DNA from: an uncultured Rhizobiaceae bacterium
GTDB taxonomy: Bacteria > Pseudomonadota > Alphaproteobacteria > UBA828
DNA length: 64,000 nt
Reading direction: 5' to 3'
Assembly: GCA_964413115.1 (NCBI GenBank)
Contig: CAYPSQ010000002.1
Coordinates: forward strand, 8,639-72,638
The notes beneath the pieces are model-generated. The model saw nothing but the letters and a program-made list of their open reading frames with translations, did no database searches and was not told the origin of the DNA. Shown one piece after another: positions 4,635 through 53,115 of the stretch (the first letter of the stretch is position 1; every line of letters starts with the position of its first letter). The position numbers and the translations under genes are program-made.

Positions 4635-5305
4635 ATGCATTAAGCGATCTTCCGGCGACAAGTTGGTGGTGGGTGCGCCATGCGCCGGTCACCACCCATC
4701 ACGGCCGGCTTTATGGCCAGTCTGATGTGCCGGCCAACACCGAAGACAGCGAAGCCTTCAAAGGCTTGGCCGAGCAATTGCCGAAAGGCGCGCTTTGGAT
4801 AACTAGTCATCTGCAGCGCACCCATCAGACCGCAAACGCCATCGTTGAAGCTGGCCATGCGGCGGAAAAGCCGCTGATCGAGGAAGATCTGGCGGAACAG
4901 AGTTTCGGCGATTGGCAGGGCTTGAGCTATGCCGAGGTCGAAGCCGAGCGGGCGGGGGCGGGTCATCCTTTTTGGATTGCACCGGCGGATTTTGCCGCGC
5001 CCAACGGCGAAAGTTTCGCTGCCGTCATGACGCGCGTGTCTAAAACGATCTCACGCCTCAGCACACACCATACAGGGCGCGATATCGTCGCCGTCGCGCA
5101 TGGCGGCTCGATCCGGGCGGCACTTGGCCATGCGCTCGGCATCGCACCAAATCAAGCGCTTTCCTTCACCATCGATAACCTTTCGATCACACGAATCGAC
5201 TGTTTCCACGGCGCGGACGGGCGTCAGGATTGGTGCGTGATCGGCGTCAATCTGCCGCCTAGTAAAAGCGCTGCGCATGGGGTAGTTTTCCCCCCAAGAC
5301 GCTGA
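4631..5305 (+). CDS. cobC: Alpha-ribazole-5'-phosphate phosphatase (histidine phosphatase family)
   Basis: RHAPV...HGRLYGQSD (RHG catalytic motif) and a downstream AHGGSIRA His motif. Overlaps cobS stop by 4 nt. Confidence 0.8.
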   Translation: MNALSDLPATSWWWVRHAPVTTHHGRLYGQSDVPANTEDSEAFKGLAEQLPKGALWITSHLQRTHQTANAIVEAGHAAEKPLIEEDLAEQSFGDWQGLSYAEVEAERAGAGHPFWIAPADFAAPNGESFAAVMTRVSKTISRLSTHHTGRDIVAVAHGGSIRAALGHALGIAPNQALSFTIDNLSITRIDCFHGADGRQDWCVIGVNLPPSKSAAHGVVFPPRR

Positions 5306-5510
5306 GTCAGGGAAACCGGTGACGCGCTCCGTTCGGGAGCGTCAGGCCGGTGCTGCCCCCGCAACTGTAAACGGCGAGGTAGTCCCCTTTTGTGCGGGAT
5401 GTGTTCCGCACGCGCCACTGGCGGCGAAAGTCGCCGGGAAGGCGGGGGACTTGCCCTTGACCCGAAGCCAGGAGACCTCCTCGGCGTCGCCCCGGAACGG
5501 TCCTCGGAGG
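5296..5510 (+). promoter_or_regulatory. Cobalamin (AdoCbl) riboswitch in the 5' leader of the cobU operon
   Basis: GGGAAACCGGTGA at 5310-5322, GCTGCCCCCGCAACTGTAA, and the B12-box AAGCCAGGAGACCTCC at 5465-5480. A ~200-nt leader between cobC stop and cobU start. Confidence 0.85.
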
Positions 5511-5514
5511 GAGG

Positions 5515-6048
5515 ATGATGCCGCTTTCGACGGACACGGCACGTACGACATTGGTGATCGGCGGCGCTCGCTCGGGCAAAAGCCGCTACGCCGAACAGCT
5601 GTTGGCCGCGCATGACGGAACCCGCATTTACATCGCCACGGCTGAAGCCGGTGATGCGGAAATGGCGGCGCGCATCGCCGCACATCAAGCACGCCGTGGC
5701 GCCGGTTGGCGGACGATCGAGCAGCCGCTCGATCTAGTGACGGCGCTGGAGACCCATTGCCGCCCTGCCGGCGCGGTGCTGGTTGATTGTCTGACCCTGT
5801 GGCTGAGCAATTTAATGGCGGCGTCACGCGATATCGCGGCGGCAACCAGCCGGCTCGTGCGCGCTGTGCAGCGCCTGGAAGGGCGCACGGTGCTGGTGTC
5901 GAACGAAGTTGGCCTTGGCATCGTTCCCAACCATCCCCTCGGCCGTGAATTCCGCGACCATGCCGGGCGCCTCAATCAGGCAGTGGCCGCCGCCGTCGAC
6001 GAAGCGGTGTTCATCGCTGCCGGCCTGCCGCTTAGGCTGAAACCGTGA
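5515..6048 (+). CDS. cobU: Adenosylcobinamide kinase / adenosylcobinamide-phosphate guanylyltransferase
   Basis: P-loop LVIGGARSGKSRYAE. 177 aa, typical CobU/CobP size. Confidence 0.9.
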   Translation: MMPLSTDTARTTLVIGGARSGKSRYAEQLLAAHDGTRIYIATAEAGDAEMAARIAAHQARRGAGWRTIEQPLDLVTALETHCRPAGAVLVDCLTLWLSNLMAASRDIAAATSRLVRAVQRLEGRTVLVSNEVGLGIVPNHPLGREFRDHAGRLNQAVAAAVDEAVFIAAGLPLRLKP

Positions 6049-6998
6049 GCATAGCGGAACTTCGCATCGTCACCCTGCTGCCGAGCGCGACAGAAATCGT
6101 CGCGGCCCTCGGTCTCGGTGCGCAGCTTGTCGGGCGGTCGCACGAATGCGATTGGCCACCCGGGGTGGCAGAGCTTCCCGTCTGCACCCGTTCGCGCGTA
6201 GCTTTAGACGGAAGCAGCGCTGAAATCCACCGCCAGATTTCTGAATTTGTTGGCCAGGCGCTCAGCATTTACGAGCTCGATAGAGACATGCTGCGCGCAC
6301 TGCGGCCGACCCATATCGTGACCCAGGATCAGTGCGAGGTCTGCGCAGTCAATCTGAAAGACGTTGAAGCGGCGCTAGCGAAAGACATCGGCAACGCGGT
6401 CGAGGTCGTCTCGCTCAGCCCGCTCCGTCTCGGTGAAGTGTGGGCCAGTATTCGCCAGGTCGGCCGCGCGCTCAGCGTGGACGCCGATTCATATTGCCGC
6501 ACCCTGACCGGTCGCATTGCGCGCATCGCTGCTGCAGGAACGGAATTGCCCGGAGCGCCACCATCTATCGCGACCATCGAGTGGTGCGATCCACTCATGG
6601 CGGCGGGAAACTGGTTGCCCGAGCTTGTCGCCATCGCCGGAGGCAATAATTTGTTCGGCGCCGCCGGCGAGCATTCGCCGCGCCTAGAATTCGATGATTT
6701 GCGCGCCGTCGAGCCCGATATCCTGATTTTCATGCCGTGCGGCTATGACTTGATGAAAACCGCCGAAGAGGCCGAGCAGTTGTTACAGGCACCCACCTGG
6801 GCGGCGCTCGCCGCCGTTCGTGACAGTCGGGCCTTTGCCGTGGACGGCAATGCCTATTTTAACCGTCCGGGACCGAGACTGGTTGAATCGGCGGAAATAC
6901 TGGCCGAGATATGCCATCCGGAAAGCCACAATTTTGGTCATGAAGGATCGGCATGGCGCCGTCTTGGCGCCAGCCCCGAAACTGACAACCGTGAATAG
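6045..6998 (+). CDS. BtuF/FhuD-like (class III periplasmic-binding-protein fold) cobalamin-binding protein with no evident signal peptide
   Basis: N-terminus RIVTLLPSATEIVAALGLGAQLVG matches the BtuF family start motif. No hydrophobic leader. Overlaps cobU stop by 4 nt. Confidence 0.65.
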   Translation: MSIAELRIVTLLPSATEIVAALGLGAQLVGRSHECDWPPGVAELPVCTRSRVALDGSSAEIHRQISEFVGQALSIYELDRDMLRALRPTHIVTQDQCEVCAVNLKDVEAALAKDIGNAVEVVSLSPLRLGEVWASIRQVGRALSVDADSYCRTLTGRIARIAAAGTELPGAPPSIATIEWCDPLMAAGNWLPELVAIAGGNNLFGAAGEHSPRLEFDDLRAVEPDILIFMPCGYDLMKTAEEAEQLLQAPTWAALAAVRDSRAFAVDGNAYFNRPGPRLVESAEILAEICHPESHNFGHEGSAWRRLGASPETDNRE

Positions 6999-23964: not shown

Positions 23965-24672
23965 TTGAAGCGCCTGCCCGAGGCGCTTATCTTCACCGCT
24001 CAAATGGATTTTATTCGTCTAAAAAAACCGCGCTCTGATAATCACCCGGGCTTTTCCCGCGATCCACGCGGCTTGCGCCGCAATCCACTCGTCTGGATCG
24101 CCTTGCTCGGCGCTATTGTTCTCTATACCCAAATGGACGGCTCCTTGTTGGGCGATCTTGATGAGGCGCAGCGCCCAGTAGTTCATTTGACCGATGTCGG
24201 CGGCGCTTTCACGCTGATCGATCACCATGGCCGTGCGGTGACGGAGCAGGATTATGTCGGCCGCTACATGCTTATTTATTTCGGCTACAGCTGGTGCCCG
24301 GATGTGTGTCCAACCGAACTGCTTTTGATGAGTCAAGTTGTGGACCTACTGGGCGAGGCCGGCGAGAAGGTCCAGCCTATATTTATCACCGTCGATCCGG
24401 CGCGCGATACGGTCGAGTCACTAGCCAAATATGTGGTGAATTTTCACCCGCGTCTAACCGCGCTGACTGGTAACGAGGCGCAAATTTTGGCCGTGGCGGA
24501 TGCCTACAAAGTCTATTTCAGTAAGGGCGAGGAACTTGATGCGGCGGACGATTATGTCGTAGATCACTCTGATATCATGTATTTTATGGGCCCCGATGGC
24601 GCTCTTTTAAAATATTTCCAAACTGGACAGCGGCCTGTCGATATCGCCCAGGCGATAGGGCAGCATTTGTGA
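23965..24672 (+). CDS. SCO1/SenC family thiol-disulfide/copper chaperone-like protein, membrane-anchored
   Basis: Single TM helix LVWIALLGAIVLY, thioredoxin-like CxxxCP motif CPDVCP, conserved downstream His in DHSDIMYFMGPDG. Stop overlaps the cobB GTG start. Confidence 0.8.
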   Translation: MKRLPEALIFTAQMDFIRLKKPRSDNHPGFSRDPRGLRRNPLVWIALLGAIVLYTQMDGSLLGDLDEAQRPVVHLTDVGGAFTLIDHHGRAVTEQDYVGRYMLIYFGYSWCPDVCPTELLLMSQVVDLLGEAGEKVQPIFITVDPARDTVESLAKYVVNFHPRLTALTGNEAQILAVADAYKVYFSKGEELDAADDYVVDHSDIMYFMGPDGALLKYFQTGQRPVDIAQAIGQHL

Positions 24673-43768: not shown

Positions 43769-44224
43769 ATGCTGGAACCTTCCAAAAAGCTTGTTTATGC
43801 GGTCGAATCGGTGGTCGATATCGCCTATAACGGCGGCACCGAGCCTGTGCGCAGCCGTGAAATTGCCAAGCGCCAGGGCGTACCGCACCGTTATTTAGAA
43901 CAAGTAATGCAGAGTCTCGTACATGGGGGCGTGTTGCGCGGCGTGCGCGGTCCGCGCGGTGGATATCTGCTGGCGCGGGAGCGCCGGCGCATCACGCTTG
44001 GTCATATCGCGCGGGTGGTGCTTGAACTTGAAAAGATGGACCACAAAGAAGCCAAAGGTGCTGCTTCTGATTTGGCAGATTACGTGCTTCAACCAATATG
44101 GAACGAGATGCAGGAAGATATGATGACCCGCCTCGACAAGATTACGATCGAAGATCTTTGCCAGCGTGCGATGAGTCTCGGTATCGAGCGCGCCTCTGAC
44201 ACGAAACTTGATTTTACAATTTAA
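43769..44224 (+). CDS. Rrf2 family transcriptional regulator (CymR-like, lacks the three-Cys cluster ligands)
   Basis: [42 protein letters not shown] winged-helix signature of Rrf2. Only one Cys. Start at MLEPSKKL (43769). Confidence 0.8.
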
Positions 44225-44238
44225 GGGCGGAAAATATC

Positions 44239-45207
44239 GTGACAGATCAAGACCAAAAAACATTCTCGCGCGGCCGAATTTACGAAAATTTCATAGAAAC
44301 GGTCGGTGGCACGCCGCTGGTACGGTTCAATCGGCTGCCGCAGCAGGCTGGCTGTAAGGCCGAAATAATTGCCAAGCTTGAATTTTTCAATCCCTTGGCC
44401 TCGGTTAAAGACCGTATAGGCTTCGCCATGATCGACGCTGCTGAAGAAGTGGGGCAGGCGGTCCCAGGAAAGACAATTTTGGTCGAGCCGACCTCGGGAA
44501 ATACCGGGATCGCGCTGGCCTTTGTCGCCGCGGCGAAAGGCTACCGCTTGATTCTGACTATGCCGGAGAGCATGTCTCAGGAACGGCGTAAGCTTCTCAA
44601 GCTGCTCGGCGCCGAACTCGAGCTGACACCACCGGAATTGGGGATGAAAGGTGCTATGGCAAGGGCTCAGGAAATCGTTTCGGAAAATGACGGTGCACTG
44701 ATGCTTCAGCAATTCGCCAACCTCGCCAATCCGGCAGTTCACCGCCGCACAACGGCGGAAGAAATATGGAACGATTGCGACGGCAAGTTGGATGTGTTTG
44801 TGGCTGGCGTCGGCACCGGCGGTACCATCACCGGTTGCGCCCAGGTGCTGAAACCCCGCTTGCCGAATTTGCGCGTGGTTGGGGTTGAGCCCGAGGACAG
44901 TTCCGTGCTGTCTGGCGGCGCACCGGGCCCGCATAAAATTCAAGGAATCGGGGCAGGATTCTTACCGGACATTCTGGAGACGTCGCTGATCAACGAATAC
45001 CTATCCATTGGTAACGAGACCGCATTCGAAACGGCGCGCCAAGTCGCCCGGATGGAGGGCATCCCGGTCGGGATTTCGTCGGGCGCCGCGGTGGCGGCAG
45101 CGCTTGAGGTCGGCTCCCGCGCCGATATGGTGGGCAAGCGCATCGTGGTCATCATACCGTCCTTTGCCGAGCGTTATCTGTCGACCGATCTCTTCAGCGG
45201 CGTCTAG
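44239..45207 (+). CDS. cysK: Cysteine synthase (O-acetylserine sulfhydrylase, PLP-dependent)
   Basis: PLP-lysine motif NPLASVKDR and [10 protein letters not shown] loop. Confidence 0.88.
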
Positions 45208-48457: not shown

Positions 48458-49051
48458 TCAGTCGAAATCCGTGCCGAGCGCGCGCCGGGCGGTTTCCGGA
48501 ATGACCGCCATATGGCCGTAATTGGAATGATTTATGGATATCACGGTGCGCACCGCGTTATCGAGAAATCTCTCTATTTTGTCGGGGCTGAATTCAAACT
48601 GTAGAAAATGCACCGCGGATGTTTTGCCTTCGCCGGTGGTACGCTTAACCGTGTCGGCAATCGGCTGAGCCGCAATAGCGTTATCGCCAAGCTCAATGCG
48701 AATAGTTTTCTCGATGCCGCCGAGGCGGGCCAATTCACGCGCCCGCACGGTGCCGTCTGCAATTTCCAACATGAGTGTCGCGACGAGATTTCTTCCATTT
48801 GGAATCAATGGATTGTAAGCGTTCAATTCGCCTGAAACCTGTTCCTCTCCACCGCGCTCGACAAACAACATCTCGTGAATCTGCATCCACATAGTGTCGT
48901 AGCTCTCGAAATAAAATGTTGCAAATGGGCCGACGGCAATGCGCCGGGCGCGTTTAACACCGCTGATTTGCGCACGCCTTGCAGCTCGCTCGTCGGCATA
49001 TGTGGCCATATCCATGATATCGGAAGGAAATATTTTACGTTTAGTCGCCAT
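48458..49051 (-). CDS. DUF3501 family protein
   Basis: 197-aa protein, last gene of the rubrerythrin operon. Assigned to DUF3501 by recall of its sequence pattern and its conserved neighbourhood, not by a search. Confidence 0.55.
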   Translation of the reverse strand: MATKRKIFPSDIMDMATYADERAARRAQISGVKRARRIAVGPFATFYFESYDTMWMQIHEMLFVERGGEEQVSGELNAYNPLIPNGRNLVATLMLEIADGTVRARELARLGGIEKTIRIELGDNAIAAQPIADTVKRTTGEGKTSAVHFLQFEFSPDKIERFLDNAVRTVISINHSNYGHMAVIPETARRALGTDFD

Positions 49052-49060
49052 GTAAATTTC

Positions 49061-50434
49061 CTATTTGCCGAGTTCGTAGGCCCGGGCGAAGAGCTCGATG
49101 GGGTGATAGGCGCGCGTAACTTTCGGTAATGCCGAGGCGCCGTCCTTATGTTCTTTGCTTTCTGCCGCGAGCAGTTCCATGCCGGCGACAATATGGCTGG
49201 CGGCAAGCGGGCATTCAGATGCGATGAAGCGGCTGCCGTTTTCCAGAGCGCGCCGTGCCGTGGGTTTGCCGACCTTGAGCGCAATCTCGTGGAAATCCCG
49301 GGTGACGCCAATCGAGCCACCATGGCCTGAGCAACGCTCGATCACTTCAATTTCCGCGTTCGGCACGAGCTTTAGCATGTCTGCCGCCTTATTGCCGATA
49401 TTCTGCGCGCGGGCGTGGCATGCCATATGCAGAGTCACACCGCCCTCGAGGGTTCCCATGCCCTCGGCTAATCCTTCATCGCGGGCAATGGCGACGATGT
49501 ATTCGGTGATGTCGAAGCTGTGTGCTGCCAGCCGCGCTACCTTGGCATCCTCAGGCAGCAGGAGCGGCCATTCAAGTTTGAGCATGAGTGCGCAGCTCGG
49601 CACTAAGGCGACGACGTCGTAGCCCTTGTCGATCCAATTTCCGAGCTCAGCGGCGGTTTTCATGGCGTTTTCAGCAACTCGCGCAATATCTCCCTGTTCG
49701 AGCTGTGGCATGCCGCAGCAGCGTGGATACACTACCTCGCAGGTCACCCCATTATGGGCAAGAACCGCCAGCGCCGCCTCGCCGATGGCGGGAGAATTGT
49801 AATTGGTGAAGCAAGTGGCATAGAGCGCGACCTTGCGCCCTTGGGCTGGAGCTGAGCCGTTCACCGCTGGTGGGTTCTTGCGTGCTCGGCGCAGAAATGT
49901 CGGGTTGCGAAATCGCGGTAGGCGCGCTTCGCGGTGAATACCGGCCAGCTTTTCCATCGCTAACCGGCTGAGGCGGTTGCTTTTTTGTGCTCCCCAATTC
50001 ATCAGCGGTGCAAAAATGCGCGCAAGACGCCCATTCTTATCTGTTTCGGCGAGTCGTGGACTGGCCGAGGTCGGTGCCTGCCCGTTGCGATGCTGGTTGG
50101 CGCGGTAGCGCAACATGAGATGCGGAAAATCGATATTCCATTCATGTGGTGGGGTATATGGGCATTTGGTCATGAAGCACATGTCGCACAGTGTGCAGGC
50201 ATTGACGACACTGGCGAAGTCCGCCGATGCAACGCCATCGACTTCACCGGTCTTTGAGTCGTCTACCAGATCGAACAGGCGGGGGAAGGAATCGCACAGG
50301 CTGAAACAACGTCGGCAGCCATGGCAGATGTCGAACACCCGCCGCATTTCCACATCGAGCGCTGGCGCATCGAAAAATTCAGGATCGCGCCATGCGACAG
50401 GATGGCGTATCGGTGCACCGGGATCCACAGCCAT
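49061..50434 (-). CDS. Heterodisulfide-reductase/GlcF-like iron-sulfur protein (2x[4Fe-4S] ferredoxin motifs + two CCG domains)
   Basis: CHGCRRCFSLCDSFP and CTLCDMCFMTKCPYTP ferredoxin-type motifs. CCG-domain cysteines (PRCCGMP, CSGHGG, ECPLAAS). Confidence 0.8.
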   Translation of the reverse strand: MAVDPGAPIRHPVAWRDPEFFDAPALDVEMRRVFDICHGCRRCFSLCDSFPRLFDLVDDSKTGEVDGVASADFASVVNACTLCDMCFMTKCPYTPPHEWNIDFPHLMLRYRANQHRNGQAPTSASPRLAETDKNGRLARIFAPLMNWGAQKSNRLSRLAMEKLAGIHREARLPRFRNPTFLRRARKNPPAVNGSAPAQGRKVALYATCFTNYNSPAIGEAALAVLAHNGVTCEVVYPRCCGMPQLEQGDIARVAENAMKTAAELGNWIDKGYDVVALVPSCALMLKLEWPLLLPEDAKVARLAAHSFDITEYIVAIARDEGLAEGMGTLEGGVTLHMACHARAQNIGNKAADMLKLVPNAEIEVIERCSGHGGSIGVTRDFHEIALKVGKPTARRALENGSRFIASECPLAASHIVAGMELLAAESKEHKDGASALPKVTRAYHPIELFARAYELGK

Positions 50435-50530
50435 CTCTCTTGCCAGTCTAGTTGGGTGTGGTGGAAGTCAGCGCAGCGGGGCTCCCGACGAAAACTGTCG
50501 GCAGCCCCGGCGCCATGTGCCTAGTCTCGA

Positions 50531-50947
50531 TTAAAGTGAATCGAGAGCTTGTTGGAAGCGGCCGGCGTGGGATTTCTCAGCCTTAGCGAGAGTTTCGAAC
50601 CAGTCAGCGATTTCATCGAAACCTTCATCGCGCGCGGTGCGCGCCATGCCGGGATACATATCAGTATATTCATGTGTCTCGCCGGCGACAGCAGCGGCGA
50701 GATTGTTTGACGTGTCACCAATCGGCAAGCCTGTGGCCGGATCTCCGGTTTCTACCAAATAATCTAGGTGGCCGTGTGCATGGCCGGTTTCACCCTCGGC
50801 GGTGGAGCGAAATACGGTCGATACATCGTTGAAACCTTCAACATCCGCCCGGCGCGCGAAATAGAGATAGCGCCTGTTCGCTTGACTTTCGCCCGCGAAA
50901 GCGTCTTTCAAATTTTGTTCGGTCTTGGAACCCTTCAATGCCGGCAT
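50531..50947 (-). CDS. Rubrerythrin-family diiron protein (ferritin-like domain only, no rubredoxin domain)
   Basis: [18 protein letters not shown] start typical of rubrerythrin, and the four E/ExxH diiron ligand helices. Confidence 0.85.
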
Positions 50948-51060
50948 CGGCTTCTCTCCTAATTTGTTTTTTTCGCTCAGCGACGACCGCGACGGTTATC
51001 CACCGCGGCACCATGCTAGGCAGCCTTTTATGCAGTAGGCGGGCAGCGCCGTCAAGTTCA

Positions 51061-51077
51061 TTTAGAATGATTCTAAG
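51061..51077. promoter_or_regulatory. Irr-box / iron control element (ICE) palindrome TTTAGAA-TGA-TTCTAAG
   Basis: 16/17 match to the alphaproteobacterial ICE consensus TTTAGAA-N3-TTCTAAA. Lies ~115 bp upstream of the rubrerythrin start and ~80 bp downstream of the irr stop. Confidence 0.7.
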
Positions 51078-51155
51078 GACTATCCGCGATGCCCCTCTTG
51101 CGGCCAAATTCAAAAAATACGGAGAAGGTTCGGGGACGGTGGCTGCTAGGCGCTG

Positions 51156-51587
51156 TCACTGCGCGGCGGGCGCGCCGTTTCTGACACGAATAATTATGTC
51201 GATGCGCGAAATTTCGGCTCCTTCAGGGAGCGCAGGTAATTCGCCGATGGCGATATTATCGCCGGAGACGTCACGTAATTTTCCACTGTCCTCAAAATAC
51301 AGGTGGTGGTGGGCGCTGATATTAGTGTCGAAATAGGACCGACCGGCATCGACGACCAATTCCCGCAACAATCCCGCACTGGTGAATTGGTGCAGCGTGT
51401 TGTAGACGGTCGCGAGAGAGACACTGACCCCTTGGCCGAGCGATTCGGAGTGGAGCTGTTCGGCGGTGACGTGCCGGTCGTTGCCCGAAAACAGTTGCTG
51501 CGCCAGCGACCGGCGTTGACGCGTCGGCCGCAGTCCGGCATCGCGGAGCAACTCCATGATATCGTCTGATGTCACGTTCTGGCGCAT
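51156..51587 (-). CDS. irr: Fur-family iron response regulator Irr (heme-responsive)
   Basis: LRPTRQRRSLAQQLF ... VSLATVYNTLHQFTSAGLLRELVVDAGRSYFDTNISAHHHLYFEDSG closely parallels Bradyrhizobium Irr, including the HHH heme-regulatory motif. Confidence 0.8.
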   Translation of the reverse strand: MRQNVTSDDIMELLRDAGLRPTRQRRSLAQQLFSGNDRHVTAEQLHSESLGQGVSVSLATVYNTLHQFTSAGLLRELVVDAGRSYFDTNISAHHHLYFEDSGKLRDVSGDNIAIGELPALPEGAEISRIDIIIRVRNGAPAAQ

Positions 51588-51714
51588 ACCTAGTCTCAGC
51601 TAATGAACACTTGTCTTGATCTCCAGCACACAACATAGAGTTGAACAATTCTAAATCAAGAAGGGATTATAAATTGCTACCCTAGGGGCGGTTTCCCGCA
51701 GCCCTTTACAGGCG

Positions 51715-53115
51715 CTAGTCGCCCGTTACCATGCGGCTGACAAGTTCCTTTACTGACGGAATGAAGCCGTTGGAGTAAAAAGGATCCGTCGCAAATTGGT
51801 AAGCGCCGTGGCCGGAGAACATCAGTTGATCCTCGACATCGTCTTCGTCATGGATGATCACCTGTAGAGTCTTTTGGATACAAAAGCTGCGCGGATCGGC
51901 CTTCTTGCCGGTGGTGAAATCAGGGTTTGTTGACCAATTGCTGAACCGGCACGATGATAGGCAGCCCATGCAGGCGGCCTGATCGTTGCGGATTTCCCGG
52001 GCCTTGTCGTCGGTCACAAATATTAGGGTCGAATCGGGCGTTTTCATGACCCGTTTGAAGCCGCTACCTAGCCATTCCTGAGCGCGTTTAAAATCGCCCT
52101 TGGTGAGATAAAACGACCGACCGCGCGGGCCTGGGGTGAGCTTTTGGTCATGATCTCCGAGCGGCTCCGAGGTGAACGCTACTTGATGCTGTTCGCGTTG
52201 TTCCAGGTCGTTGATAAATTTATTTCTAACGGCTGATGAATAGAACCCGGTGGGGCTGAATTTGTTGAGGCCGACATCGCCTTTTTTCAGGGTCAACAGG
52301 CGGCGCTTCCAGCTATCGGATATAGGGCTTTCCTTGGTCACCAACGGACGCGTGCCCAATTGGAAAGCGATGGGACCGATTTCCGGATTATCTATCCAAT
52401 CTTGCCACTCTCGTAGATACCAAACGCCACCGGCCATGATAATTGGCACCTTATGCAGGCCGATGCTGTTCATCAACCTGCGTAGGTCACGCACGCGCGG
52501 ATAGGGATCTTCCGGTTTGTTGGGATCTTCGCTGTTGGAGAGGCCGTTATGGCCACCGGCGCGCCACGGGTCTTCATAGACGACACCGCCGAGCAAATCC
52601 GAGAATTTGTGATAAGCGCGTTTCCACAGCGCCCGGAATGCGCGGCCCGAAGAAACGATAGGGTAATAATGCACCTGATATTGATTGGCGATCTCGGCGA
52701 TTCGGTACGGCATGCCAGCGCCGCAGGTAACCCCATGAATCAGGCCTTTGCCGCGCTCGAGGATGGCGCGAAGGATTCGTTCGCTAGCTGCCATCTCCCA
52801 CAGGATGTTCATGTGCAGGCGGCCTTTGCCGCCGGACGTTTCATGGGCGATGCGGGCTTGCGCCAAACCGCCTTCAACCGCGTATTTCACCAGCTCTTCG
52901 TGGCGTTCGCGGCGTGTTCGGCCGTGATAGATTTGCGGTATCAACTGGCCGTCCGCGTCGTAAGAATCAGCATTGACGCCCGAGAACGTGCCAACTGCGT
53001 CGGCTGCCGCCCACGCACCCGAAGACAGCCCATTGGTGACGCCAATGCCTTTGCCGCCTTCGATCAATGGCAACACTTCTTTGCCTGAAACAATCAGTGG
53101 ATGAAGCGCCTTCAA
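51715..53115 (-). CDS. NMO/FabK/PfaD-like FMN-dependent oxidoreductase family protein, long (466 aa), with a C-terminal Cys cluster
   Basis: PLIEGGKGIGVTNGLSSGAWAAADAVGTFSGV and IIMAGGVW resemble the nitronate monooxygenase/enoyl-reductase TIM-barrel motifs. C-terminal CMGCLSSC. Confidence 0.5.
   Translation of the reverse strand: MKALHPLIVSGKEVLPLIEGGKGIGVTNGLSSGAWAAADAVGTFSGVNADSYDADGQLIPQIYHGRTRRERHEELVKYAVEGGLAQARIAHETSGGKGRLHMNILWEMAASERILRAILERGKGLIHGVTCGAGMPYRIAEIANQYQVHYYPIVSSGRAFRALWKRAYHKFSDLLGGVVYEDPWRAGGHNGLSNSEDPNKPEDPYPRVRDLRRLMNSIGLHKVPIIMAGGVWYLREWQDWIDNPEIGPIAFQLGTRPLVTKESPISDSWKRRLLTLKKGDVGLNKFSPTGFYSSAVRNKFINDLEQREQHQVAFTSEPLGDHDQKLTPGPRGRSFYLTKGDFKRAQEWLGSGFKRVMKTPDSTLIFVTDDKAREIRNDQAACMGCLSSCRFSNWSTNPDFTTGKKADPRSFCIQKTLQVIIHDEDDVEDQLMFSGHGAYQFATDPFYSNGFIPSVKELVSRMVTGD

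What the first reader, a model, noticed from the sequence alone, without database searches (positions are those of the whole stretch)
48458..51587. Irr-linked rubrerythrin / HdrD-like FeS-CCG / DUF3501 three-gene module, a candidate uncharacterised iron/redox system
Three co-directional minus-strand genes lie immediately downstream of an irr-type Fur-family regulator: a rubredoxin-less rubrerythrin (50947-50531), a protein with two [4Fe-4S] ferredoxin motifs plus two CCG domains (50434-49061), and a DUF3501 protein (49051-48458). The second and third are separated by only 9 nt. CCG-domain heterodisulfide-reductase-like proteins normally partner with flavoprotein or electron-transfer subunits (HdrABC, GlcDEF, LutABC). 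Here the only partners are a diiron protein and a domain of unknown function, which suggests a self-contained peroxide/thiol- or iron-linked redox module with no assigned biochemistry. The adjacent heme-responsive regulator and the ICE box in the promoter tie it to iron/heme status.
Basis: partly seen in the sequence, partly recalled or inferred. Interest (0 to 1): 0.72.

Follow-up and report, generated by a model that had tools for sequence, protein, structure and literature searches.

The report
Irr-controlled aerobic-type rubrerythrin operon
This is a real, strongly conserved three-gene unit (rubredoxin-less rubrerythrin, an Fe-S "RFO" protein and DUF3501) that was already described and named in 2016 as the aerobic-type rubrerythrin system; here it sits under an iron-regulator (Irr) binding site, and its biochemistry is still untested.

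Summary

The module is not new. Cardenas et al. 2016 named it the aerobic-type rubrerythrin system (RBR + RFO + DUF3501; 185 genomes). Gray et al. 2020 found it in protist mitochondria. Rodionov et al. 2006 predicted Irr/ICE control of rubrerythrin genes in some Alphaproteobacteria.

My own scan confirms and extends this:
- 57 of 71 alphaproteobacterial loci carry irr-rbr-RFO-DUF3501 in this order.
- The ICE box abuts a perfect TTGAC -35 element in 49 of 50 sequences.
- All 38 near-perfect ICE matches in 870 kb lie upstream of rbr.
- Burkholderia keeps the triad without irr or ICE.

RFO is not GlpC. It falls below the curated cut-offs, is 25% identical, and its second CCG domain reads C-S-G-H instead of C-C-G. 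DUF3501 has no cysteines and matches only an orphan fold (3fjv).

Most likely function: a peroxide reductase in which RFO wires electrons to the diiron site, DUF3501 acts as adaptor, and Irr represses the operon when iron is scarce. The electron donor is unknown.

Verdict: a new member of a known, biochemically open system.

The parts
51156..51587 (-). irr: Fur-family iron response regulator (143 aa). It has an HHH motif at residues 93-95 and no cysteine, so no Cys-Pro heme regulatory motif.
   Evidence: NCBIfam IrrA 194.9 bits (cut-off 150) and Irr 180.5 bits (cut-off 170); Pfam FUR. Cys count 0. Lies directly upstream of rbr on the same strand in 57 of 71 related loci.
51061..51077 (-). ICE box (Irr-binding palindrome) CTTAGAATCATTCTAAA
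   Evidence: One mismatch to the consensus. A site with 3 or fewer mismatches is found in 48 of 58 orthologous spacers versus 3 of 1,160 shuffles. All 38 matches with 1 mismatch or fewer in 870 kb of loci are upstream of rbr.
51027..51056 (-). Predicted rbr promoter: -35 CTTGAC (51051-51056), 17-nt spacer, -10 CATAAA (51027-51032). The ICE box ends 5 nt upstream of TTGAC.
   Evidence: TTGAC lies 0-6 nt (usually 3) after the ICE box in 49 of 50 aligned sequences, followed by a CATA-type -10. The generic sigma-70 scan did not call it because the -10 lacks a final T. The transcription start is not mapped.
50986..51009 (-). GC-rich hairpin in the predicted rbr 5' leader
   Evidence: The consensus fold of the window plus 4 close relatives keeps the stem; 6 of 20 pairs show compensatory changes. 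Coordinates. Small sample; function unknown.
50531..50947 (-). rbr: aerobic-type (rubredoxin-less) rubrerythrin, 138 aa, the diiron peroxidase component
   Evidence: PF02915. E=7e-70 to Burkholderia pseudomallei Rbr structures 9onm and 4di0; E=2e-51 to sulerythrin 1j30. The classical Rbr model matches positions 1-143 of 194 only and scores 136 against a cut-off of 200.
50478..50508 (-). Stem-loop in the 96-nt rbr-RFO spacer (12-bp stem, 1 mismatch, no U-tract)
   Evidence: The 101-nt stretch that contains the spacer folds at -36 kcal/mol, z=-2.3. No terminator was called there. The rbr-RFO spacer is at least 60 nt in all 60 loci (median 106), with median fold z=-2.65.
49061..50434 (-). [quoted passage not shown]
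   Evidence: PF02754 in two stretches. GlpC models score below their cut-offs. 15 invariant Cys. AF2 model pLDDT 87; structural neighbours are LutA, EtfD and HdrB. CCG-2 reads C339...C368-S-G-H371...C408, against C...CCG...CxxC in E. coli GlpC.
48458..49051 (-). DUF3501 protein (197 aa). It has no cysteine. The fold is a beta-sandwich plus helices. Proposed here as an adaptor or assembly subunit.

Best explanation

Proposed mechanism:
1. The rubredoxin-less rubrerythrin reduces H2O2, and probably organic hydroperoxides, to water at its diiron site. This is shown for homologues, not for this protein.
2. RFO replaces the missing rubredoxin domain. It acts as a four-cluster Fe-S electron wire that takes electrons from a cytoplasmic donor and delivers them to rubrerythrin. 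This is inferred.
3. The donor is not encoded in the operon. A ferredoxin or flavoprotein type donor is most likely; quinol or thiol is less likely. This is inferred.
4. DUF3501 has no redox-cofactor motif and is translationally coupled to RFO. It probably works as an adaptor or assembly subunit that docks rubrerythrin onto RFO. This is inferred.
5. Irr binds the ICE palindrome that abuts the -35 element of the rbr promoter and represses the operon when iron or heme is scarce. That spares the roughly 13-18 Fe atoms per complex. Repression is released when iron is plentiful or Irr is degraded, which is when Fenton risk is highest. The binding site and its conservation are shown here; the sign of regulation is inferred by analogy.
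6. A structured spacer after rbr probably yields more rubrerythrin than RFO and DUF3501 from one transcript. This is inferred.
For: Identity of the parts.

The triad is a unit:
- 57 of 71 alphaproteobacterial loci have irr-rbr-RFO-DUF3501 in this order and on one strand.
- Burkholderia multivorans has rbr-RFO-DUF3501 in the same order.
- The literature reports 185 genomes with all three genes, DUF3501-RFO fusions in Nitrosomonas, and all three proteins co-distributed in eukaryotes (PMC5114695; PMC7050145).

Peroxidase role of the Rbr type:
- Ferriperoxin of Hydrogenobacter thermophilus is a single-domain Rbr that needs an external NADPH-FNR donor and is essential for aerobic growth (PMC3317640).
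- Sulerythrin shows peroxidase activity, and BpRbr is reported to be induced by oxidative stress (PMC12154734).

RFO as an electron wire:
- It has two complete ferredoxin motifs plus CCG domains whose cysteine sets are incomplete (4 and 3 Cys, with invariant His340, His371 and His414).
- The whole model superposes on the soluble part of EtfD (TMq 0.51) and on LutA and HdrB.
- In EtfD, a CCG motif with C-T in place of C-C carries a linear [3Fe-4S] cluster, and a His-completed cluster is non-catalytic (PMC13083937).

Soluble complex and docking: there are no transmembrane helices, Rbr has charge -10, and the RFO linker has charge +15.

DUF3501 is not a redox protein: it has 0 Cys, only R22, F48 and E60 are invariant across 54 diverse members, and its fold is an orphan.

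Irr control:
- ICE sites with 3 or fewer mismatches occur in 48 of 58 spacers versus 3 of 1,160 shuffles.
- The ICE box is followed by TTGAC in 49 of 50 sequences.
- All 38 best ICE matches are upstream of rbr; the ICE box is kept in L040 although irr is not adjacent; it is absent in Burkholderia.
- In Rhodobacter sphaeroides, ccpA has an ICE box about 40 nt upstream of the mRNA 5' end, binds Irr in vitro and is mildly de-repressed in the irr mutant (PMC3413700).

Operon structure: 9-nt RFO-DUF3501 gap, no terminator called in the rbr-RFO spacer, and a conserved structured spacer.
Against: - No experiment exists for any RFO or DUF3501 protein, so electron flow from RFO to Rbr is untested.
- Ferriperoxin works in vitro with FNR alone, so RFO is not strictly required for Rbr reduction.
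- Thermoproteales, and Roseomonas here (L080), have Rbr and DUF3501 without RFO.
- 12 of 71 loci have RFO-DUF3501 with no rbr in the 12.5-kb locus, so RFO and DUF3501 may have a role beyond serving Rbr, or rbr lies elsewhere in those genomes.
- In Pelagibacter ubique the rbr transcript rose 1.57-fold under iron limitation (PMC2864753), the opposite of simple Irr repression.
- An ICE box centred near -47 could also fit activation.
- Co-transcription and the transcription start are not mapped.
- I could not compute cluster geometry or a complex model with these tools.
Confidence: 0.6

Rival explanations
1. Iron-handling module rather than a peroxidase. Rubrerythrin would act as a ferroxidase or small iron buffer. 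The carboxylate-rich DUF3501 would act as an iron chaperone. RFO would act as the reductase that mobilises or inserts iron, analogous to Bfd-Bfr. Irr would regulate it like the storage and export genes bfr and mbfA.
For: - Irr/ICE targets are typically iron storage and export genes such as bfr and mbfA.
- The Pelagibacter paper annotates Rbr as a hypothetical ferroxidase.
- The near-invariant residues of DUF3501 are mostly Glu and Arg plus His175 and Tyr178.
- BpRbr binds several metals promiscuously.
Against: - In the literature read here, aerobic-type Rbr and sulerythrin are described as domain-swapped dimers, not ferritin-like cages, so storage capacity is negligible.
- Measured activities of homologues are peroxidase or catalase.
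- No conserved His or Cys metal site spans the DUF3501 family.
Confidence: 0.12
2. Thiol- or quinol-driven peroxide reductase. The CCG domains of RFO would be catalytic, as in HdrB/HdrD, TfrB or SdhE/GlpC. They would oxidise a low-molecular-weight thiol pair or membrane quinol and pass the electrons through the ferredoxin clusters to rubrerythrin.
For: - The architecture matches HdrD and GlpC. RFO's best curated-model hits are GlpC, LdhH and TfrB, and HdrB is a structural neighbour.
- No flavoprotein is encoded in the operon.
- The strongly basic linker could mediate peripheral membrane association.
Against: - Neither CCG domain has the full C...CC...CxxC set needed for Hdr-type catalytic noncubane clusters. 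CCG-2 has C-S-G and C-x-x-A with conserved His.
- In EtfD, comparable substitutions give fully ligated, non-catalytic clusters.
- There is no transmembrane or heme-b partner gene in the locus.
Confidence: 0.15
3. Irr activates rather than represses the operon, so the system is made under iron limitation. It would then serve, for example, as a low-heme substitute for catalase and cytochrome c peroxidase.
For: - The ICE box lies upstream of, not over, the -10 and start region, centred near -47.
- Pelagibacter rbr mRNA rose 1.57-fold on iron limitation.
- Rbr is a non-heme peroxidase, which would be useful when heme is scarce (inference).
Against: - The complex is very iron-costly (four Fe-S clusters plus a diiron site), which argues for iron-sparing repression.
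- The ICE box ends 3-5 nt from the -35 hexamer, a position suited to blocking RNA polymerase.
- The R. sphaeroides ccpA promoter has similar geometry and is de-repressed in the irr mutant.
Confidence: 0.2
4. [quoted passage not shown]
For: JGI and NCBI name many homologues 'glycerol-3-phosphate dehydrogenase subunit C'. GlpC models are the best NCBIfam hits.
Against: - Scores of 178.7 and 104.2 fall far below the curated cut-offs of 278 and 279.9.
- Identity to E. coli GlpC is 25%, and the CCG-2 ligand set differs.
- No glpA or glpB lies in the locus.
- The gene sits next to DUF3501 in all 77 of 80 loci that keep DNA upstream of DUF3501; the only locus with ample upstream DNA and no RFO is L080.
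Confidence: 0.01

Closest known systems
[quoted passage not shown] Examples include the Burkholderia pseudomallei BpRbr operon and the Sulfolobus tokodaii sulerythrin operon.
   Same: Same three protein families, and the same gene order as in Burkholderia. Rbr aligns with BpRbr at E=7e-70, with about three quarters of residues identical in the printed alignment. DUF3501 is homologous to the B. pseudomallei structure 3fjv.
   Different: Here, and in most Alphaproteobacteria sampled, the operon is preceded by irr and an ICE box fused to the promoter. Burkholderia has instead an ECF-type sigma factor gene and no ICE box. The host is an uncultured alphaproteobacterium whose nearest species representatives share only 64-68% DUF3501 identity.
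Ferriperoxin (Fpx) of Hydrogenobacter thermophilus, a characterised single-domain rubrerythrin
   Same: A rubredoxin-less diiron four-helix-bundle protein. It acts as a peroxidase and needs an external reductase (PMC3317640).
   Different: Fpx was assayed with NADPH plus FNR. In H. thermophilus the RFO gene is separated from rbr and DUF3501. No role of RFO or DUF3501 was tested there.
Classical rubrerythrin with a C-terminal rubredoxin domain (Desulfovibrio vulgaris, Pyrococcus furiosus), reduced by rubredoxin and NROR
   Same: Homologous diiron domain with the same ligands (E=4.5e-31 to 1b71). Peroxide reductase chemistry. A Fur-family regulator gene is often predicted in the same operon.
   Different: The window protein stops after the four-helix bundle: it matches model positions 1-143 of 194, has no Cys, and scores below the equivalog cut-off. 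The electron input must therefore come from a separate protein.
HdrD/GlpC/EtfD-type Fe-S proteins (two ferredoxin clusters plus two CCG domains); LutA and HdrB for the CCG pair alone
   Same: Same domain order and fold: EtfD TMq 0.51 over 413 columns, LutA TMt 0.79, HdrB TMt about 0.6. Both ferredoxin motifs and the CCG-1 cysteine pattern match E. coli GlpC.
   Different: There is no membrane or heme-b domain, and no flavoprotein (GlpAB, ETF, HdrA) gene in the operon. CCG-2 has C-S-G-H and C-P-L-A where GlpC has C-C-G and C-x-x-C. The partners are a diiron protein and DUF3501.
Irr/ICE regulon of Alphaproteobacteria (Bradyrhizobium bfr and blr7895/mbfA; Rhodobacter sphaeroides mbfA and ccpA)
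   Same: Irr orthologue above the curated cut-offs, and an ICE palindrome matching TTTRGAAYNRTTCYAAA with one mismatch. The target is an iron-containing oxidative-stress protein, like ccpA and mbfA.
   Different: The regulator gene is physically fused to its target operon, and the ICE-to--35 spacing is nearly fixed across families. blr7895/mbfA is a membrane ferritin-like exporter, not this soluble rubrerythrin.

Membership tests
Aerobic-type rubrerythrin system (RBR-RFO-DUF3501) | Rubrerythrin with intact diiron ligands and no rubredoxin domain | tested here: met
   138 aa, 0 Cys, E20/E53/H56/E90/E93/E124/H127 present. E=7e-70 to BpRbr and 2e-51 to sulerythrin.
Aerobic-type rubrerythrin system (RBR-RFO-DUF3501) | Co-localised DUF3501 (PF12007) gene | tested here: met
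   PF12007, 179 bits against a cut-off of 25, located 1.5 kb downstream of rbr on the same strand.
Aerobic-type rubrerythrin system (RBR-RFO-DUF3501) | Co-localised COG0247-type Fe-S oxidoreductase with CCG domains, related to GlpC but distinct from it (RFO) | tested here: met
   CCG in two stretches, two 4-Cys ferredoxin motifs, GlpC models below cut-off, 44.6% identical to the Burkholderia RFO over 453 aligned residues.
Aerobic-type rubrerythrin system (RBR-RFO-DUF3501) | The three genes are conserved as a collinear cluster across genomes | tested here: met
   58 of 71 alphaproteobacterial loci carry all three genes (57 of them with irr), and Burkholderia has the same order.
Aerobic-type rubrerythrin system (RBR-RFO-DUF3501) | The proteins act together as a peroxide-reducing complex | not testable with these tools
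   No biochemical data exist for RFO or DUF3501. It is still a hypothesis in PMC12154734.
GlpC (anaerobic glycerol-3-phosphate dehydrogenase subunit C) | Scores above the curated equivalog cut-off | tested here: not met
   NF008369: 178.7 bits against 278. TIGR03379: 104.2 bits against 279.9.
GlpC (anaerobic glycerol-3-phosphate dehydrogenase subunit C) | Encoded with glpA and glpB; full C...CCG...CxxC set in the second CCG domain | tested here: not met
   No glpA or glpB in the locus. CCG-2 is C...C-S-G...C-x-x-A, and identity to E. coli GlpC is 25%.
Heterodisulfide reductase HdrD/HdrB | Two complete CCG motifs (Cx31-39CCx35-36CxxC, motif recalled from established knowledge) that bind catalytic noncubane [4Fe-4S] clusters | tested here: not met
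   Invariant Cys are 208/239/240/281 and 339/368/408 only, that is 4 + 3 instead of 5 + 5.
Heterodisulfide reductase HdrD/HdrB | Partner subunits HdrE, or HdrA and HdrC, encoded nearby | tested here: not met
   The neighbours are rbr, DUF3501, irr, an NMO-like gene, an SH3 protein gene and a 2-hydroxyacid dehydrogenase gene.
Irr regulator / ICE regulon | Regulator passes the Irr/IrrA equivalog models | tested here: met
   IrrA 194.9 bits against 150; Irr 180.5 bits against 170.
Irr regulator / ICE regulon | ICE palindrome (TTTRGAAYNRTTCYAAA) in the target promoter, conserved in orthologous promoters | tested here: met
   One mismatch at 51061-51077. Sites with 3 or fewer mismatches occur in 48 of 58 orthologous spacers versus 3 of 1,160 shuffles. 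The ICE box is followed by TTGAC in 49 of 50 sequences.
Irr regulator / ICE regulon | Heme-responsive elements: the HxH motif and the Cys-Pro heme regulatory motif | tested here: inconclusive
   HHH is present at residues 93-95 (read from the sequence). There is no Cys at all, so no Cys-Pro motif. From my own knowledge, some Irr proteins, such as that of Rhizobium leguminosarum, also lack that motif.
Irr regulator / ICE regulon | Irr binds the site, and expression responds to iron or heme | not testable with these tools
   Needs EMSA or footprinting, plus expression data in the wild type and an irr mutant.
Classical two-domain rubrerythrin | C-terminal rubredoxin-like Cys4 domain | tested here: not met
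   The NF045767 match covers model positions 1-143 of 194 and scores 136 bits against 200. The protein has no Cys.

The most novel reading that the evidence does not exclude
The irr-ICE-rbr cassette may be the ancestral core of the Irr regulon. On this reading, Irr began as a PerR-like local regulator dedicated to the aerobic-type rubrerythrin operon and was only later recruited to global iron control in Rhizobiales, which kept the fab-irr linkage but lost the adjacent triad.

A second part of the reading concerns RFO. Its second CCG domain (C-S-G-H...C-P-L-A...H) may carry an unusual His-ligated or linear Fe-S cluster that hands electrons to a diiron site through DUF3501. That would be a new type of electron-transfer chain that was also present in early mitochondria.
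Probability: 0.25. Interest if true: 0.6.

Novelty: new member of a known kind. Interest (0 to 1): 0.35.

Why it matters
The aerobic-type rubrerythrin system is widespread. My pattern scan hit at least 582 species, the family has 1,987 clusters at 50% identity, and the literature reports it in protist mitochondria. Even so, its electron donor, the role of DUF3501 and the cluster chemistry of RFO are all unknown.

This window adds no new kind of system, but the analysis gives three concrete handles:
- A nearly invariant Irr-operator/promoter fusion predicts iron- or heme-dependent expression across many alphaproteobacterial families.
- An RFO-specific ligand signature separates RFO from GlpC, under whose name it is widely mis-annotated.
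- The operon architecture (structured rbr-RFO spacer, coupled RFO-DUF3501) suggests unequal stoichiometry of the three proteins.

If the proposed chain were shown, it would explain how aerobes run rubrerythrin without rubredoxin.

Tried and rejected
- NMO-like flavoprotein gene (51715-53115) as the 'missing' flavoprotein partner of RFO. It lies upstream of irr in 28 of 52 loci. Where it is absent, the slot holds fabA/fabB or fabB-fabI, and the protein is of the FabK/nitronate monooxygenase type. It therefore looks like part of a fab-irr linkage. Rejected as a partner, though not disproved.
- Weak ICE-like site upstream of irr (51639-51655, 3 mismatches) as an autoregulatory site. It is not conserved; the best sites in 31 NMO-irr spacers mostly have 4-7 mismatches.
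- Fold-based function for DUF3501. Only the orphan structure 3fjv matches; all other hits are generic beta-sandwiches. No conserved Cys/His metal site appears across the family.
- Sequence search of RFO against PDB: no hit.
- Rfam scan of 50380-51720: no family.
- Natural DUF3501-RFO fusions for modelling: none among the best 150 representatives, where the longest is 320 aa. The fusion claim therefore rests on PMC5114695 alone.
- The afdb50 fold library was unavailable.
- The Rudolph 2006 ICE paper (PMC1347296) and the Rodionov supplementary tables are not held.
- The plasmid collection gave only Burkholderia secondary replicons with no usable annotation, so I located the genes there by tblastn.
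- Transmembrane segments: none convincing in any of the three proteins.

Full report
**1. Observation**

All four minus-strand ORFs exist at exactly the reported coordinates.
- DUF3501 (48458-49051) matches PF12007 end to end at E=1.3e-52.
- The 457-aa protein (49061-50434) has two CCG stretches in Pfam. It carries two ferredoxin-type motifs, C37-x2-C40-x2-C43-x3-C47 and C80-x2-C83-x2-C86-x4-C91-P, all invariant in 41 homologues.
- The 138-aa protein (50531-50947) is a rubrerythrin (PF02915). It contains no cysteine, so it has no rubredoxin domain, and it keeps every diiron ligand.
- The 143-aa protein (51156-51587) passes the curated NCBIfam cut-offs for IrrA and Irr.
- The RFO-DUF3501 gap is 9 nt.
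- A near-perfect ICE palindrome, CTTAGAATCATTCTAAA, lies at 51061-51077, 114 nt upstream of the rbr start codon.

**2. It is already a described system**

A full-text search for DUF3501 led to Cardenas, Quatrini and Holmes 2016 (PMC5114695). [quoted passage not shown] In their survey:
- all three genes co-occur in 185 finished genomes;
- Rbr and DUF3501 occur without RFO in 25;
- DUF3501-RFO fusions exist in Nitrosomonas.

They proposed that RFO compensates for the lost rubredoxin domain. Gray et al. [quoted passage not shown] They find all three proteins with mitochondrial targeting in Andalucia and other protists, and they trace RFO and DUF3501 to Alphaproteobacteria. A 2025 preprint on the Burkholderia pseudomallei rubrerythrin (PMC12154734) still only hypothesises that the operon partners are the electron-transfer partners. 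The biochemistry is therefore open. Rodionov et al. 2006 (PMC1698941) predicted that the minimal Irr regulons of Pelagibacter, Rhodospirillum rubrum and Magnetospirillum contain only a cytochrome c peroxidase or a rubrerythrin-like gene.

**3. Independent test of conservation**

A pattern scan of one genome per species with a DUF3501 alignment found at least 582 species. The 80 best loci are all alphaproteobacterial: Azospirillum, Parvibaculum, Tepidicaulis, Roseomonas, Ferrovibrio, Tagaea, Sneathiellales, Kiloniellaceae and many MAGs. The nearest loci share only 64-68% DUF3501 identity, so the window comes from an uncultured lineage. The identical protein lies on a 967-kb metagenome contig.

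tblastn with the window proteins gave these counts for the 71 loci that have at least 2.7 kb upstream:

| Gene content | Loci |
|---|---|
| irr-rbr-RFO-DUF3501, collinear on one strand | 57 |
| rbr-RFO-DUF3501 without irr (L040) | 1 |
| irr-rbr-DUF3501 without RFO (L080, Roseomonas) | 1 |
| RFO-DUF3501 only | 12 |

The 12 RFO-DUF3501-only loci keep the window's downstream neighbours, an SH3 protein and a 2-hydroxyacid dehydrogenase, so they are orthologous positions that lost or relocated irr-rbr. A Burkholderia multivorans replicon has rbr-RFO-DUF3501 in the same order. It has no irr and carries an ECF-type sigma factor gene upstream. The triad is therefore the conserved core, and irr is an alphaproteobacterial addition.

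**4. Regulatory architecture**

- In 48 of 58 irr-rbr spacers the best ICE match has 3 or fewer mismatches, against 3 of 1,160 shuffled spacers.
- When the spacers are aligned on the ICE box, a perfect TTGAC follows 0-6 nt later (3 nt in 35 cases) in 49 of 50 sequences. A CATA-type -10 follows about 17 nt further on.
- In the window the elements are: ICE 51061-51077, CTTGAC 51051-51056 and CATAAA 51027-51032.
- All 38 ICE matches with 1 mismatch or fewer in 870 kb of locus DNA lie within 260 nt upstream of rbr.
- L040 retains the ICE box without an adjacent irr. Burkholderia and the rbr-less loci have none.

This shows a conserved Irr operator fused to the rbr promoter. The sign of regulation is inferred. 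An operator ending 3-5 nt from the -35 hexamer should hinder RNA polymerase. The R. sphaeroides ccpA promoter has an ICE box about 40 nt upstream of the mRNA 5' end, binds Irr in vitro, and is mildly de-repressed in the irr mutant (PMC3413700). The 1.57-fold rise of Pelagibacter rbr mRNA under iron limitation is a caution. A weak ICE-like site upstream of irr (51639-51655) is not conserved.

**5. Operon structure**

- The rbr-RFO spacer is 96 nt and contains a 12-bp stem-loop (50478-50508) with no U-tract. The 101-nt stretch that contains it folds at -36 kcal/mol with z=-2.3.
- No terminator or promoter was called in that spacer.
- Across 60 loci this spacer is never shorter than 60 nt (median 106) and is unusually structured: median z is -2.65 and 65% fall below -2, measured against mononucleotide shuffles in my own script.
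- The RFO-DUF3501 gap has a median of 21.5 nt across the same loci.

The simplest reading is one transcript with a stabilising or attenuating hairpin that yields more rubrerythrin than RFO and DUF3501. This is inferred.

**6. RFO**

Many database records call RFO homologues 'glycerol-3-phosphate dehydrogenase subunit C'. The window protein does not support that name:
- It scores 178.7 and 104.2 bits against GlpC cut-offs of 278 and 279.9.
- It is 25% identical to E. coli GlpC.
- It has no glpA or glpB neighbour.

The alignment with GlpC shows shared ferredoxin motifs and a shared CCG-1 pattern (C208, C239-C240, C281). In CCG-2, however, GlpC has C...C-C-G...C-x-x-C, while RFO, including the Burkholderia copy, has C339...C368-S-G-H371...C408-P-L-A...H414. 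These histidines are invariant in 41 RFO sequences.

The AlphaFold model (pLDDT 87.1, pTM 0.89) superposes on three structures:

| Structure | Score |
|---|---|
| LutA (CCG pair) | TMt 0.79 |
| Soluble part of mycobacterial EtfD | TMq 0.51 over 413 columns |
| HdrB | TMt about 0.6 |

The EtfD structure paper (PMC13083937) shows that a CCG motif with C-T in place of C-C holds a linear [3Fe-4S] cluster. It also shows that a histidine completes the neighbouring noncubane cluster and makes it non-catalytic. The authors interpret this as an adaptation to oxygen. By analogy, RFO's CCG clusters are more likely electron-transfer centres than thiol or disulfide catalytic sites. This is inference only.

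RFO has no transmembrane helix. Its linker (residues 100-200) has a net charge of +15, and rubrerythrin has -10, which suggests electrostatic docking.

**7. DUF3501**

- The family is large: 2,280 hits at 90% clustering and 1,987 clusters at 50%.
- Across 54 diverse members only R22, F48 and E60 are invariant. Near-invariant residues are mainly Glu and Arg, plus His175 and Tyr178.
- The window protein has no cysteine, and no cysteine column is conserved in the family alignments.

DUF3501 therefore carries no recognisable redox-cofactor motif. It pairs with Rbr where RFO is absent (Thermoproteales; Roseomonas here). It is fused to RFO in Nitrosomonas. It is translationally coupled to RFO here. 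The most economical role is an adaptor or assembly factor between RFO and rubrerythrin. An iron-chaperone role cannot be excluded.

**8. Mechanism, and how sure I am**

- Identity as an aerobic-type rubrerythrin system under Irr/ICE control: about 0.9.
- Full mechanistic model: about 0.6. The model is a peroxide reductase, with RFO as an Fe-S wire fed by a ferredoxin- or flavoprotein-type donor, DUF3501 as adaptor, and Irr repressing at low iron.
- Rivals: an iron-handling role (0.12), catalytic thiol or quinol oxidation by the CCG domains (0.15), Irr as activator (0.2, a variant of the regulatory step) and the GlpC annotation (0.01, refuted).

**9. Side leads**

The NMO-like gene upstream of irr (51715-53115) looked like a candidate flavoprotein partner. 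In loci that lack it, the slot holds fabA/fabB or fabB-fabI. I therefore read it as an enoyl-ACP-reductase-type member of a fab-irr linkage. After its own family, Irr's best matches are PerR models (76.7 bits) rather than Fur models (49.3 bits). Classical rubrerythrin operons of anaerobes are reported to include a Fur-family gene. This supports a speculative reading in which Irr began as the local, PerR-like regulator of this operon.

**10. Verdict**

It is an instance of a system already named and surveyed in the literature, and its link to Irr was already predicted for some species. What remains open is the biochemistry, and that is open for the whole family, not for this locus in particular. 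Novelty: new member of a known kind. Interest: 0.35.

Noticed in passing
window 51715-53115 (-); L022, L057, L036, L074 upstream of irr: A 466-aa NMO/FabK-like flavoprotein gene lies directly upstream of irr here and in 28 of 52 related loci. Where it is absent, the slot holds fabA+fabB or fabB+fabI. A fatty-acid-synthesis to irr linkage therefore seems conserved across alphaproteobacterial families. The NMO-like protein has a C-terminal C-x2-C-x3-C...C pattern of unknown meaning.
   Followed up: partly
L006, L007, L008, L011, L013, L015, L017, L018, L019, L021, L023, L024: Twelve alphaproteobacterial species loci carry RFO-DUF3501 with no rbr, irr or ICE box anywhere in the 12.5-kb locus. They keep the window's downstream neighbours (SH3 protein, 2-hydroxyacid dehydrogenase). 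The 2016 survey reported RFO+DUF3501 without RBR in only one genome. Whether rbr sits elsewhere in these genomes is unknown.
   Followed up: partly
L080 (Roseomonas genomospecies 6), about 4967-6558: The locus has irr-rbr-DUF3501 with no RFO between them. This is a bacterial example of the two-gene form otherwise reported for Thermoproteales.
   Followed up: no
window 50478-50508 (-): A 12-bp GC-rich stem-loop without a U-tract lies in the rbr-RFO spacer. A long (at least 60 nt), unusually structured spacer at this position is conserved in 60 loci although its sequence is not.
   Followed up: partly
window 50986-51009 (-): A hairpin lies in the predicted rbr 5' leader. The window and four close relatives keep it with some compensatory changes (6 of 20 pairs). 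There is no Rfam match.
   Followed up: partly
window 49061-50434 (-), residues 339-414: RFO family signature in the second CCG domain: C-H...R-C-S-G-H-G-G...C-P-L-A...H, with invariant histidines, where E. coli GlpC has C-C-G and C-x-x-C. It could serve to separate RFO from GlpC in annotation. Many public records name RFO homologues 'glycerol-3-phosphate dehydrogenase subunit C'.
   Followed up: partly
window 51639-51655: An ICE-like half-site (TTTAGAA, 3 mismatches overall) lies upstream of irr. It is not conserved in 31 orthologous spacers, although several Azospirillum-type loci have a ...GAAATCGTTCTAAA half-site there.
   Followed up: yes
window 24606-24622 (+): An ICE-like sequence, TTTAAAATATTTCCAAA (2 mismatches), lies inside the 3' end of a 235-aa ORF that looks SCO1/SenC-like to me (not run against family models). 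It sits just before a 437-aa ORF resembling a cobyrinate a,c-diamide synthase. It may be a chance match.
   Followed up: no
L081 1461-2918 (+) (Burkholderia multivorans): An ECF-type sigma factor gene (Sigma70_r2 and r4 plus DUF6596) lies immediately upstream of the Burkholderia rbr-RFO-DUF3501 cluster. This suggests a different, lineage-specific regulator for the same triad.
   Followed up: no
window about 43770-44225 (+), mapped from L082: An Rrf2-family regulator gene sits next to the cysK-like gene (44239-45207) and a ThiF/MoeB-like gene. Rrf2 regulators include iron and Fe-S sensors in Alphaproteobacteria. I did not examine it.
   Followed up: no
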